From Escherichia phage T4_ev151, in sequence record LR597660: 64,000 bases of DNA; one strand, written 5' to 3'. Below, in pieces: positions 33,655-36,634 of this stretch. A model generated the notes under the pieces. That model worked only from the letters and a program-made list of their open reading frames with translations, had not been told where the DNA came from and did no database searches. Position numbers and translations under genes: made by a program. Every line of letters begins with the position of its first letter. The stretch's first letter is position 1.

Positions 33655-34218
33655 TTATTTACCTAGTTTAGTTATTATAGCTTCTGCAGCAGCTTTTAGC
33701 TTAGATGCAGTGTTAATACGATTTTTAATTTCAGTATACGCATCGCCAAGAACATCAAGGCTATCAGAATAAACACTTACACTATTGCGTTCGCTATTTG
33801 AAATAGAACCTTTAGTTTTACGATCAAAATCGGTGTACACGTCTTGAAGATCGCGGGCTGCCTTCTTTGCATCATCCAATGCATCAAGAGCTTTATTCAA
33901 AGCATTAACGTATTTTTTGGTGTCGAACATATTCTTAGAAATTTTAACAGGTGCACGTTCAGGAGTAGCTAATACAGATTTAGGAACCTGAGCGCCAGAT
34001 GCCAATTTCTTAGAAATTTTGAAAAATGCTTTATTGAATTTATTTTCTTGACTCATTGTAAAAGAACTATTATCGATGTTGTACATTTCAATAGCTTTAG
34101 CTTTCCACTTAAGAAAATCGCCGCGGTCTTTTGGGTCCAAGTGGAAGAATACTTTAGTAAGATCTGCTTCAGATGGTAATTTTGCTGCTTCGGTTAAAAA
34201 TTCTGCATAGGTTTTCAT
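33655..34218 (-). CDS. Internal protein family member (capsid-targeting sequence MKTYAEFLTE)
   Basis: 187 aa; N-terminus MKTYAEFLTEAA; AAGGA SD. Confidence 0.65.
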   Translation of the reverse strand: MKTYAEFLTEAAKLPSEADLTKVFFHLDPKDRGDFLKWKAKAIEMYNIDNSSFTMSQENKFNKAFFKISKKLASGAQVPKSVLATPERAPVKISKNMFDTKKYVNALNKALDALDDAKKAARDLQDVYTDFDRKTKGSISNSERNSVSVYSDSLDVLGDAYTEIKNRINTASKLKAAAEAIITKLGK

Positions 34219-34308
34219 TTAAAATCCTTGAAATAATCTATCGGTTGGTTATTAATTATTTATTACTTTGTTATTATCCGTAACAGCGTTATCCGAGTGA
34301 TTCAAACT

Positions 34309-34336
34309 AAAAAGCCCCAACCTTTCGGTCGGGGCT
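34309..34336 (-). terminator. Rho-independent terminator ending the tRNA/stable-RNA transcription unit
   Basis: Minus RNA AGCCCCGACC-GAAA-GGUUGGGGCU then U5. Confidence 0.65.
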
Positions 34337-34652
34337 AAGCCTTGCGGCAACCTTGTCGGGGTTCCACCTGCTAAGGCAAGTGTTTGTACGAAACGCCGGG
34401 ATTCGAACCCGGTTATCAAGCAGTTGACGCTACTCAATATTTTTAAAAGGCCATATCTCGACCATATCCGAACGTTCCGTCAAAAACGCTACTCGGCTTA
34501 CGGCAAAGATATTTCCTCGAATCGATAATTCGGTGCGCCGTTTCTGCTGTGATATAAGGGGGCATTAACAAAACATAAAGATTTATTAATGCCAGTCCTT
34601 AAACAGGGAACATCAGTCCGACGACTTGCCGGTAGCGACCCGGCTTCTTGTC
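34337..34652 (-). ncRNA. Stable small RNA region (T4 species 1/2 position), with a tRNA-like T-arm
   Basis: No ORF; between tRNA-Arg and terminator; GGTTCGAATCC T-arm at 34392-34410 without a full cloverleaf. Confidence 0.4.
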
Positions 34653-34729
34653 TGGTCGAGGCAGAAGGATTCTAACCTTCAACCTACGGATTAGAAATCC
34701 GTTGCTCTATACAATTGAGCTATGCCCCG
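34653..34729 (-). tRNA. tRNA-Arg (anticodon TCT), CCA encoded
   Basis: Cloverleaf read by eye: acceptor cggggca/tgcctcg, anticodon loop tTCTaa. Confidence 0.8.
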
Positions 34730-35943: not shown

Positions 35944-36552
35944 TTATTTATTACGTGAAAAAGACTGTTCTATCAATTCTGGACACTTTCGTTCTATCCA
36001 TTTTCTAGCTTTTTGTGGGCTTATACCTATTATTTTAGCAGCTTTACTAACCCATCCAAATTTAGAATAATCGATTTTAACTAATTCTTCGTAAATTTCA
36101 TCAGTTAAAATCTTTTCATTAATATTTACCAGTAAATGATATAATTTATTATCATTAGCAATTTTAATGAATCTTTTATAGTTTCCGCCTTTACTTAAAC
36201 CTAATGAAGTAATTGCAGATGATATAGTAGCCGAATTTAATAGTGCGTTTAAAATTTCTTCATCACTAACATTATAACGCTTTCTATTATTTTTAATATT
36301 TTTACCAGCAAAAGTATCAGTTTGCGAATGGCAATTTGGGCATAATAATCTTAAATTTGATTTAAGATGATTTTTGTTATTTCCATCAATATGGTCTAAT
36401 TGTAGAACAATATGCTTATTTTGCCATTTTGAAATTTTACAAATTGCACACTCATATGGAAAAATATTTTCTTTTATTATTTTGTCTTTCAGCTTTCCTG
36501 TACTAAAATTTGGATGTTTTCCTTCAAAAATTTCAGCTAATTTAGTATCCAT
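35944..36552 (-). CDS. HNH homing endonuclease
   Basis: HNH motif LQLDHIDGNNKNHLKSNLRLLCPNCHSQTD; ATG 36552 (track TTG 36576); stop 6 nt from tRNA-Leu 5' end. Confidence 0.75.
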   Translation of the reverse strand: MDTKLAEIFEGKHPNFSTGKLKDKIIKENIFPYECAICKISKWQNKHIVLQLDHIDGNNKNHLKSNLRLLCPNCHSQTDTFAGKNIKNNRKRYNVSDEEILNALLNSATISSAITSLGLSKGGNYKRFIKIANDNKLYHLLVNINEKILTDEIYEELVKIDYSKFGWVSKAAKIIGISPQKARKWIERKCPELIEQSFSRNK

Positions 36553-36634
36553 AATATGATTCCCAATTATTAACAAAGGCTCTCAAACAAGAACCCTTGA
36601 TGATAGAGGGTATTAATCAGTGCGGTATGAGTTA

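What the first reader, a model, noticed from the sequence alone, without database searches (positions are those of the whole stretch)
34337..34652. Stable-RNA region with a tRNA-like T-arm but no complete tRNA
Between tRNA-Arg and the operon terminator lies about 315 nt without ORFs. It includes a canonical T-arm (CCGGG-TTCGAAT-CCCGG at 34392-34410) lacking a matching acceptor stem. This is consistent with T4 species 1/2 stable RNAs or a degraded tRNA.
Basis: partly seen in the sequence, partly recalled or inferred. Interest (0 to 1): 0.35.

Follow-up and report, generated by a model that had tools for sequence, protein, structure and literature searches.

The report
T4 species 1/2 stable RNAs
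This stretch of a T4-like phage encodes the two small stable RNAs known from phage T4 since the 1970s (rnaD and rnaC), so it is an already known feature whose function is still unknown; one of them turns out to be a well-conserved tRNA look-alike with its own acceptor stem.

Summary
The window is a Tequatrovirus (T4-like phage). The flagged stretch lies on the minus strand, downstream of tRNA-Arg. It holds the orthologues of T4 rnaD (species 2 RNA, 34651-34532) and rnaC (species 1 RNA, 34525-34387), then a structured trailer and the operon terminator (34336-34313).

The T-arm is real, at 34412-34396. ARAGORN and Rfam call no tRNA here, and there is no credible ORF.

The 5' end of rnaC (CGAUUCG) pairs with CGUUUCG right after the T-arm, and A-U changes to G-C in other genera.

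rnaC folds as a tRNA-like four-way junction. On 27 distinct sequences, 98% of cells pair and 25 of 45 pairs show compensatory changes. It occurs in at least ten T4-like genera, usually as a cassette between tRNA genes.

Possibly a new observation: two hexaloops (UUGACG and CGUCAA) are exactly complementary. They are invariant except in Marfavirus, where both change together (UUGGCG/CGCCAA). This suggests a kissing interaction.

The function is unknown in the literature. Interest is modest.

The parts
34653..34729 (-). tRNA-Arg(UCU), the gene directly upstream (context; last canonical tRNA of the operon)
   Evidence: ARAGORN; Rfam tRNA 70.6 bits.
34532..34651 (-). rnaD orthologue (T4 species 2 RNA), about 120 nt. 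It has an 8-nt 5' tail, a 5' hairpin and a long rod-like arm closed by pairing with the 3' end.
   Evidence: Maps onto T4 and RB33 rnaD; 84.4% identical to T4. Conserved fold in 15 distinct sequences: 97.4% of cells paired, against 28-51% for slid controls. Three non-alignable middle-arm types give the same architecture.
34628..34644 (-). rnaD 5' hairpin GCCGG-GUCGCUA-CCGGC, with an invariant 7-nt loop
   Evidence: Closing pair A-U in 10 sequences, G-C in 4. The plus-strand 'terminator-like' hit at these coordinates is this hairpin read backwards.
34526..34531 (-). 6-nt spacer GAAUUA between rnaD and rnaC. It resembles the 4-5-nt spacers that separate an upstream tRNA's CCA from rnaC in other genera.
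34387..34525 (-). rnaC orthologue (T4 species 1 RNA), 139 nt: a tRNA-like four-way junction
   Evidence: 97.8% identical to T4 rnaC. MFE -49.3 kcal/mol, z = -3.8. The RNAalifold consensus has the same helices as the MFE fold, a few pairs shorter. Covariance model R1 scores 157.7 bits, with this as the only hit in the window. 98.3% of cells paired, 25/45 pairs with compensatory changes, 0/500 shuffles reach this.
34518..34524 (-). rnaC acceptor stem, 5' strand CGAUUCG
   Evidence: Pairs with 34395-34389. Third pair is A-U in 14 and G-C in 13 distinct sequences. The tandem U.U is invariant.
34448..34517 (-). rnaC long irregular arm (70 nt) in the D-arm position
   Evidence: In the alignment of the most divergent copies (A7), 20 of its 22 variable-stem pairs (helices 3 and 4) show compensatory changes; the 3-bp base helix (AGG/CCU) never varies. 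Arm length is conserved.
34478..34483 (-). Hexaloop 1, UUGACG, at the tip of the long arm
   Evidence: Invariant in every genus examined, even where the surrounding stem is rewritten. It is UUGGCG only in Marfavirus.
34414..34439 (-). rnaC hairpin 2, in the anticodon/variable-arm position, with a 9-10 bp stem
   Evidence: 6 of 9 pairs show compensatory changes. The stem is fully rewritten in L132 while the loop is kept.
34424..34429 (-). Hexaloop 2, CGUCAA, the exact Watson-Crick complement of hexaloop 1
   Evidence: Invariant except CGCCAA in Marfavirus, which matches the UUGGCG change in loop 1. Helix 5: 100% paired, A-U in 15 and G-C in 2 distinct sequences.
   Evidence: Third pair is G-C in 16 and U-A in 11 distinct sequences. 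The loop is replaced by UGCAUCC or UGCAUGC in some lineages.
34389..34395 (-). rnaC acceptor stem, 3' strand CGUUUCG. It is followed by U-A (34388-34387), the annotated 3' end. No CCA is encoded.
34338..34386 (-). 3' trailer with three small hairpins. The first, CACUUGC-CUUA-GCAGGUG, spans 34382-34365. The trailer is also conserved in Dhakavirus, directly after rnaD.
   Evidence: Fold: -36.5 kcal/mol, z = -3.5 for 34390-34305. Conservation.
34308..34336 (-). Intrinsic terminator of the tRNA operon: AGCCCCGACC-GAAA-GGUUGGGGCU followed by UUUUU
   Evidence: 10 pairs, 7 G-C, T-run.

Best explanation
The flagged stretch is the 3' end of the phage's tRNA operon on the minus strand. It encodes the orthologues of T4 rnaD (species 2 RNA) and rnaC (species 1 RNA), then a structured trailer and the operon terminator.

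How it most likely works:
1. Both RNAs are made as part of the long tRNA-operon transcript. This is reported for T4, not tested here.
2. They are then cut out and trimmed by the host's tRNA-maturation enzymes. This step is inferred.
3. rnaC carries its own processing and stability handle: a 7-bp acceptor-type stem formed by its 5' and 3' ends, stacked on a canonical T-arm. That combination is the minimal shape RNase P recognises.
4. In place of the D and anticodon arms, rnaC has a 70-nt irregular arm and a 10-bp hairpin. Their 6-nt loops (UUGACG and CGUCAA) are exactly complementary and probably kiss.

rnaC therefore behaves as a natural 'tRNA-scaffolded' structured RNA, carried as a portable cassette within tRNA gene arrays of T4-like phages. 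rnaD is an independent structured RNA made of a 5' hairpin plus a long rod.

The biological role of both is unknown. My best guess is that rnaC acts as a tRNA mimic or protein- or RNA-binding platform through its invariant loops and its unusual acceptor stem with a tandem U.U. It is not a decoding tRNA.
For: Identity:
- Base-for-base alignment with the annotated rnaD and rnaC of T4 and RB33. rnaC is 97.8% identical and rnaD 84.4%. 321 phage records cover at least 80% of the query that spans tRNA-Arg to the terminator.

Not a tRNA, no ORF:
-.

rnaC structure:
- MFE -49.3 kcal/mol, z = -3.8.
- The RNAalifold consensus has the same helices as the MFE fold, a few pairs shorter.
- On 27 distinct sequences, 98.3% of cells pair and 25/45 pairs have compensatory changes. 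0/500 shuffles reach this. Slid controls pair 39-50%.
- Acceptor pair A-U in 14 and G-C in 13 distinct sequences; T-stem pair G-C in 16 and U-A in 11.

Processing context:
- In Kagamiyama-, Winkler-, Karam- and Gelderlandvirus, and in Citrobacter phage Ursula (no genus assigned), rnaC sits between tRNA genes with 4-11-nt spacers, as a tRNA gene would.
- Dhakavirus has rnaD and the trailer with rnaC precisely absent.

Loops:
- UUGACG and CGUCAA are complementary and invariant across genera while the flanking stems are rewritten. They change together to UUGGCG/CGCCAA in Marfavirus.

Literature:
- The T4 tRNA cluster is transcribed as a ~1.75 kb precursor of eight tRNAs plus species I and II RNAs, ending after species I (PMC2330249).
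- RNAC is detected by northern blot in T4 infection, and both RNAs are classed as late RNAs of unknown function (PMC9697503; PMC3014915).
- Acceptor-stem/T-stem-loop model substrates are cleaved by RNase P (PMC11143913).

Terminator.
Against: - No expression or end-mapping data exist for this particular phage.
- The annotated T4 5' end (U1) lies 1 nt upstream of the first acceptor base pair, which is not the textbook RNase P product.
- No CCA is encoded, and the acceptor stem has two U.U mismatches.
- The T-loop consensus is lost in Winklervirus and in one group of metagenomic and IMG/VR contigs (L017, L029, L043, L046), so classical T-loop recognition cannot be universally required.
- The kissing interaction rests on one independent covariation event (one lineage). 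The unequal arm lengths (about 26 bp against 10 bp) make an intramolecular contact sterically non-trivial.
- The functional guess (mimic or platform) has no direct support. From my memory of the older T4 literature, not checked here, deletions of the T4 tRNA region are viable on laboratory hosts.
Confidence: 0.9

Rival explanations
1. A decaying tRNA pseudogene: remnants of a former tRNA (T-arm only) drifting in the operon's 3' region without function.
For: tRNA finders and the Rfam tRNA model fail. No CCA, no 7-nt anticodon loop and no D-arm are present. Function is unknown in the literature (PMC3014915).
Against: 139 nt are kept at 97.8% identity within Tequatrovirus, and the element is recognisable at 57-61% identity in distant genera with its helices intact. 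25-29 base pairs show compensatory changes, 0/500 shuffles reach this, and slid controls pair about 40%. Loops and junction nucleotides are invariant. A stable RNA is seen in T4 (PMC9697503).
Confidence: 0.02
2. A genuine but odd tRNA. The 3' 94 nt of rnaC would be a class-II tRNA with a long variable arm, as ARAGORN calls 'tRNA-Lys(UUU)' in phage G29.
For: ARAGORN calls a 94-nt tRNA-Lys on the G29 copy, which differs from the window by one A deletion and two substitutions. An internal ACGGAAC can pair with GUUUCGU (7 bp) in Tequatrovirus. There is a weak Rfam tRNA-Sec match: 16.4 bits, E = 2.1.
Against: The internal acceptor is not conserved. It becomes G.U to A.C in EcS1-type copies and is lost entirely in fGh-Ecl01 and Kosakonia 305, while the terminal acceptor gains a compensatory G-C at the same 3' position. 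ARAGORN does not call it in the window. The would-be anticodon stem has only 3 pairs (my own reading of the G29 sequence, not a tool result). The 5' 45 nt are conserved and pair with the rest.
Confidence: 0.02
3. Small protein-coding genes, as many GenBank records annotate ('hypothetical protein' over this stretch).
For: Numerous records carry CDS features over rnaC or rnaD. Short ORFs of 20-61 aa exist in the window.
Against: The ORFs use TTG starts, overlap the terminator or lie on either strand, and are not conserved in frame. Substitutions follow RNA base-pairing, not codon structure. T4 and RB33 curators annotate RNA here.
Confidence: 0.01
4. Purely cis-acting 3' UTR: structures that only serve to process or protect the tRNA operon transcript (RNase entry sites, exonuclease blocks), with no trans-acting RNA product.
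For: The trailer hairpins and terminator are clearly cis elements. rnaC and rnaD lie at the operon's 3' end in Tequatrovirus.
Against: In other genera rnaC lies in the middle of tRNA arrays, not at a 3' end. rnaC and rnaD occur independently of each other. Discrete stable RNAs accumulate in T4 (PMC9697503). Invariant exposed hexaloops are not needed for a mere exonuclease block.
Confidence: 0.05

Closest known systems
Bacteriophage T4 rnaC (species 1 RNA) and rnaD (species 2 RNA)
   Same: Orthologous. Same order: tRNA-Arg, rnaD, rnaC, terminator. rnaC is 97.8% identical and rnaD 84.4%. Function is likewise unknown (PMC3014915, PMC9697503).
   Different: Three substitutions in rnaC. The rnaD middle arm is of a different sequence variant. 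The upstream tRNA-Arg is the RB33 type, not the T4 type.
Canonical tRNA (Rfam RF00005)
   Same: A 7-position acceptor stem formed by the 5' and 3' ends lies directly 3' of a 5-bp T-stem with a UUCGAAU loop. The RNA forms a four-way junction. It is embedded in tRNA arrays with tRNA-like spacing.
   Different: 139 nt long. It has no D-arm, no 7-nt anticodon loop and no encoded CCA, and it has a tandem U.U in the acceptor stem. The Rfam tRNA model gives no hit and ARAGORN gives none.
tRNA-like domain of tmRNA, and other non-tRNA RNase P substrates (for example the phage P1/P7 C4 antisense RNA precursor)
   Same: An acceptor stem plus T-arm formed by distant 5' and 3' ends, with a large insertion between them. 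Such shapes are RNase P substrates (PMC11143913).
   Different: No tag reading frame, no tmRNA pseudoknots and no CCA. ARAGORN finds no tmRNA. Rfam gives only a 10-bit partial match on the T-arm.
Engineered 'tRNA scaffolds' for expressing structured RNAs (from my own knowledge, not looked up here)
   Same: The tRNA ends supply processing and stability, while the functional RNA is inserted in place of an internal arm.
   Different: rnaC is natural, and both internal arms are replaced.
   Same: Two loops in one small phage RNA are mutually complementary. Six-nucleotide loops can pair completely.
   Different: There is no evidence that rnaC multimerises or binds the packaging motor. There is no sequence or fold similarity to pRNA.

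Membership tests
T4 rnaC (species 1 RNA) | Sequence homology to T4 rnaC over its full 139 nt | tested here: met
   136/139 identical. Covariance model R1 scores 157.7 bits full length.
T4 rnaC (species 1 RNA) | Position in the tRNA operon: after tRNA-Arg and rnaD, before the operon terminator | tested here: met
T4 rnaC (species 1 RNA) | Accumulates as a discrete stable RNA of about 140 nt during infection | not testable with these tools
   Shown for T4 only, by northern blot (PMC9697503). No data exist for this phage.
T4 rnaD (species 2 RNA) | Sequence homology and conserved fold, immediately 3' of tRNA-Arg | tested here: met
   84.4% identity to T4, with invariant 5' and 3' thirds. 97.4% of cells paired on 15 sequences. 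It starts 1 nt after the tRNA-Arg CCA.
Canonical tRNA | Recognised by tRNA detectors (Rfam RF00005 at 29 bits or more; ARAGORN) | tested here: not met
   No RF00005 hit in 34337-34652 even at E up to 10. The best clan member is tRNA-Sec at 16.4 bits against a threshold of 47. ARAGORN finds none.
Canonical tRNA | Acceptor stem formed by the 5' and 3' ends, directly adjoining the T-stem | tested here: met
   CGAUUCG/CGUUUCG: 5 Watson-Crick pairs plus a tandem U.U. Covariation A-U in 14 and G-C in 13 distinct sequences.
Canonical tRNA | T-arm: 5-bp stem, 7-nt loop UUCRANY | tested here: met
   34412-34396. The stem covaries. The loop consensus is lost in some lineages.
Canonical tRNA | D-arm and an anticodon arm with a 7-nt loop | tested here: not met
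   They are replaced by a 70-nt arm and a 10-bp hairpin with an invariant 6-nt loop.
Canonical tRNA | 3' CCA and aminoacylation | not testable with these tools
   CCA is not encoded; the genomic sequence after the stem is UACAAAC. Post-transcriptional addition cannot be assessed.
tmRNA | tRNA-like domain plus tag-peptide ORF and pseudoknots | tested here: not met
   ARAGORN reports no tmRNA. The Rfam tmRNA families give only a 10.1-bit fragment.
Rho-independent terminator | G+C-rich hairpin followed by a U-run | tested here: met
   34336-34313: 10 pairs, 7 of them G-C, followed by TTTTT.
Loop-loop (kissing) RNA | Two hairpin loops with Watson-Crick complementarity maintained in evolution | tested here: inconclusive
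   6/6 complementary in all 17 distinct sequences. There is one compensatory event, A-U to G-C in Marfavirus. This is a single lineage with no physical data.

The most novel reading that the evidence does not exclude
rnaC is not just 'a stable RNA of unknown function'. It would be a distinct, widely distributed family of tRNA-scaffolded phage RNAs: at least ten T4-like genera carry it, no Rfam family covers it, and it is often mis-annotated as a CDS or tRNA.

Its active part would be a pair of invariant, mutually complementary hexaloops (UUGACG/CGUCAA) that kiss. The contact could be within one molecule, locking a compact fold, or between molecules, giving dimers or rings as in phi29 pRNA. The acceptor/T-arm module with its conserved tandem U.U would recruit the host tRNA-processing machinery or act as a decoy for a tRNA-binding host factor.
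Probability: 0.4. Interest if true: 0.55.

Novelty: already known. Interest (0 to 1): 0.3.

Why it matters

The value lies in the side results. These RNAs have lacked a function for about 50 years, and T4 has no characterised trans-acting small RNA (PMC3014915).

The comparative analysis here gives:
- a covariation-supported secondary structure for both RNAs;
- evidence that rnaC is a mobile tRNA-like cassette spread over many genera;
- two invariant complementary hexaloops and a conserved U.U-containing acceptor stem, which are concrete targets for mutagenesis;
- a covariance model that would correct widespread mis-annotation as hypothetical proteins or spurious tRNA-Lys.

Tried and rejected
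- Rfam at gathering and at E up to 10: no family covers rnaC or rnaD. Only sub-threshold noise appears (isrK, tRNA-Sec, mascRNA and tmRNA fragments on the T-arm).
- ARAGORN on the window: no tRNA or tmRNA in the region.
- Alternative acceptor partners:
  - GAAACG in the rnaD 3' end. Rejected because it is absent where rnaC follows a tRNA, and it is not complementary to the CGUUCCG variant.
  - Internal ACGGAAC (the ARAGORN-style 94-nt tRNA). Rejected because it is not conserved.
- Protein coding: rejected.
- A T4 late promoter (TATAAATA) directly upstream of rnaD or rnaC: none lies between 34650 and 36900 on the minus strand. The nearest is at 36911-36904. The sigma-70-like hits are at chance level.
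- Pattern scan of bacterial and archaeal genomes for the rnaC signature: 50 hits, none confirmed by the covariance model, so all are chance.
- Several IMG/VR pattern hits were also chance.
- Literature searches for a function of RNAC or RNAD, or for the 1970s primary papers: no function is reported, and the old papers are not held.
- An rnaC-rnaD interaction as the conserved function: rejected because the two occur independently.

Full report
**Where we are.** The window is a Tequatrovirus (T4-like phage). A 451-nt query spanning tRNA-Arg to the terminator matches 746 phage records, and 321 of them cover at least 80% of it. Nearly all are T4-like phages of Escherichia, Shigella, Yersinia or Salmonella. 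The tRNA cluster lies on the minus strand in this order: Leu, Gly, Pro, Ser, Thr, Met(CAU; annotated tRNA-Ile in T4), a GIY-YIG segB-like ORF, then tRNA-Arg(UCU) at 34729-34653. The finding covers what follows tRNA-Arg in the direction of transcription.

**Checking the observation.**
- The region has no credible ORF. The longest is a 61-aa TTG-start ORF that runs through the terminator.
- The T-arm is real.
- The core GGTTCGAATCC with up to 1 mismatch occurs six times in the window against 0.68 expected. The other five matches are the T-arms of annotated tRNAs.
- ARAGORN and Rfam find no tRNA in the stretch, even at E up to 10.
- A strong intrinsic terminator sits at 34336-34313.

**Identity.**
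- T4 (NC_000866) and RB33 annotate two RNAs right after tRNA-Arg: rnaD ('species 2 RNA') and rnaC ('species 1 RNA').
- The window aligns base for base with both. rnaD maps to 34651-34532 and rnaC to 34525-34387.
- rnaC is 136/139 identical to T4. rnaD is 84.4% identical, with its differences concentrated in a variable middle arm.
- According to the literature held here, the T4 cluster is transcribed as a ~1.75 kb precursor of eight tRNAs plus species I and II RNAs, and transcription ends after species I (PMC2330249). RNAC is detected by northern blot in T4 infection, and both RNAs are classed as late RNAs (PMC9697503). Their roles are unknown (PMC3014915, PMC9697503, PMC12685909).

**The acceptor stem exists.**
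- rnaC homologues occur well beyond Tequatrovirus: Kagamiyamavirus EcS1, Winklervirus LC53 and Virsaitis27, Karamvirus PS49, fGh-Ecl01 and VIPECLOM01, Kanagawavirus Kosakonia 305, Gelderlandvirus Melville and ABTNLPp2, Moonvirus NM4.3, Edwardsiella PEi20, Citrobacter Ursula, Marfavirus P545, EI and Marfa, and several metagenomic contigs.
- In these copies the heptamer after the T-arm is CGUUCCG instead of CGUUUCG. The heptamer at the RNA's 5' end is CGGUUCG instead of CGAUUCG. That is an A-U to G-C compensatory change. The tandem U.U in the middle is invariant.
- Two alternative partners fail. GAAACG in the rnaD 3' end is missing where rnaC follows a tRNA. The internal ACGGAAC turns into an A.C mismatch or disappears. 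That internal pairing is what leads ARAGORN to call a 94-nt 'tRNA-Lys' in phage G29, whose rnaC differs from the window by one A deletion and two substitutions.

**rnaC structure.**
- The MFE fold of the window copy is -49.3 kcal/mol with z = -3.8. The RNAalifold consensus of 16 distinct sequences has the same helices, a few pairs shorter.
- The fold is a four-way junction with these parts:
  - an acceptor stem;
  - a 70-nt irregular arm in the D-arm position;
  - an 8-11-nt A/U-rich linker;
  - a 9-10-bp hairpin in the anticodon/variable position;
  - a 1-nt linker;
  - the T-arm.
- On a model-based alignment of 27 distinct sequences, 98.3% of cells form standard pairs and 25 of 45 pairs show changes on both sides. 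No shuffle out of 500 reaches any of the five measures. Sliding the partners by 1-3 columns drops pairing to 39-50%.
- A covariance model built from the alignment finds exactly one copy in the window, at 157.7 bits.
- The element is clearly under selection for this fold, so it is not a decaying pseudogene.

**Genomic behaviour.**
- In most non-Tequatrovirus genera, rnaC sits between two tRNA genes. Examples are Phe|rnaC|Trp in EcS1 and Trp|rnaC|Gly in fGh-Ecl01 and Melville. The spacers are 4-5 nt after the upstream CCA and 6-11 nt before the next tRNA. rnaD is absent there.
- Conversely, Dhakavirus and Gaprivervirus carry rnaD without rnaC. In Dhakavirus the junction reads ...GCGCACCGAA|CACUUGCC..., which is the window sequence with the ~150-nt rnaC block precisely missing.
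- rnaC is therefore an independent cassette that lives in tRNA arrays like a tRNA gene.
- Acceptor-stem/T-stem-loop model substrates are cleaved by RNase P (PMC11143913). Taken together, this makes excision by the host tRNA-maturation machinery the most likely biogenesis. This step is inferred, not shown.
- One caveat: the annotated T4 5' end lies one nucleotide 5' of the first acceptor pair.

**Complementary hexaloops.**
- The tip of the long arm carries UUGACG (34483-34478). The loop of hairpin 2 is CGUCAA (34429-34424). They are perfect Watson-Crick complements.
- Both are invariant in every genus examined, even where the supporting stems are completely rewritten, as in fGh-Ecl01, Kosakonia 305, Melville, PEi20 and L132.
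- The only exception is Marfavirus, where loop 1 is UUGGCG and loop 2 is CGCCAA. This is an A-U to G-C compensatory change. Helix 5 is 100% paired, with A-U in 15 and G-C in 2 distinct sequences.
- This is one evolutionary event, so the evidence is suggestive rather than conclusive.
- My rough estimate of the prior chance that two hexaloops are exact complements is about 1e-3.
- The arms are unequal (about 26 bp against 10 bp). An intramolecular kiss would need a sharp bend in the long arm.
- I found no mention of this feature in the papers available to me.

**rnaD.**
- Fifteen distinct sequences share the same parts: an 8-nt 5' tail, a hairpin GCCGG-GUCGCUA-CCGGC, and a long arm whose base (GUCGUCG) pairs with the 3' end (CGGCG-C-AC). 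The hairpin's closing pair is A-U in 10 and G-C in 4.
- 97.4% of cells pair, against 28-51% for slid controls.
- The middle arm comes in three unalignable sequence types that still give the same architecture.
- Covariation support is moderate. The number of covarying pairs is not above shuffles, but the number of covarying cells is.

**Trailer and terminator.** After rnaC, positions 34386-34338 fold into small hairpins. The first, CACUUGC-CUUA-GCAGGUG, is also conserved in Dhakavirus. The terminator follows.

**Function.** Nothing in the available literature assigns a role. I commit to this model:
- Both RNAs are by-design stable products of the tRNA operon.
- rnaC uses a tRNA-like acceptor/T-arm module as its processing and stability handle. 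It exposes or locks two complementary hexaloops.
- Its most plausible activity is as a tRNA mimic or binding platform for a host or phage factor.

Identity and fold are shown. Biogenesis is inferred from context and from established RNase P biology. The trans-acting function is a guess.

**Verdict.** The feature is already known. Interest is modest. The comparative structure and the hexaloop complementarity are useful, testable leads on a long-standing small puzzle.

Noticed in passing
window 35944-36576 (minus), directly 5' of tRNA-Leu (35937-35851): T4 and RB33 have tRNA-Gln just upstream of tRNA-Leu. The window has no tRNA-Gln there. Instead a 210-aa ORF with an HNH-like motif ends about 7 nt before tRNA-Leu (Pfam HNH 17.3 bits, below the cut-off). 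It is probably a mobile endonuclease insertion that replaced tRNA-Gln.
   Followed up: partly
window 34653-34729 (minus): The tRNA-Arg(UCU) is the RB33 type and differs strongly in sequence from the T4 tRNA-Arg, although the flanking segB and rnaD are conserved (alignment A1).
   Followed up: no
L023:973-1066 (phage G29); also the CDS features in L100, L101, L103 and many records: rnaC and rnaD are widely mis-annotated in GenBank. ARAGORN calls a 94-nt 'tRNA-Lys(ttt)' in G29, and many records place 'hypothetical protein' CDSs over these RNAs. Only T4, RB33, GiZh and Kha5h among the listed hits annotate rnaC.
   Followed up: partly
window 34399-34409 (minus), rnaC T-arm: GGTTCGAATCC matches the SegB homing-endonuclease recognition core GGTTCRANTCC (PMC2330249). 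The rnaC gene is therefore a potential SegB cleavage site next to the segB-like gene.
   Followed up: no
L004:1211-1350, L020:934-1071, L017:5057-5196 (also L029, L043, L046): In Winklervirus and in one group of metagenomic and IMG/VR contigs, the rnaC T-loop UUCGAAU is replaced by UGCAUCC or UGCAUGC while the stem and the rest of the RNA are kept. The shared UGCAU suggests an alternative functional loop rather than decay.
   Followed up: no
window 34494-34486 and 34434-34426 (minus): A 9-nt direct repeat, GAGUAGCGU, forms the 5' side of both hexaloop-bearing hairpins in T4-type rnaC. This may be a trace of an internal duplication.
   Followed up: no
window 33655-34218 (minus): A 187-aa ORF lies immediately downstream of the operon terminator. 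It is present in RB33-type phages but not at this position in T4. It has no significant Pfam family.
   Followed up: partly
window 34338-34386 (minus); L024, L025, L027: The trailer CACUUGCCU(U)AGCAGGUGGAACCCCGACAAGGUU is conserved between Tequatrovirus (after rnaC) and Dhakavirus (directly after rnaD). It may be a third conserved RNA element or a processing site.
   Followed up: partly
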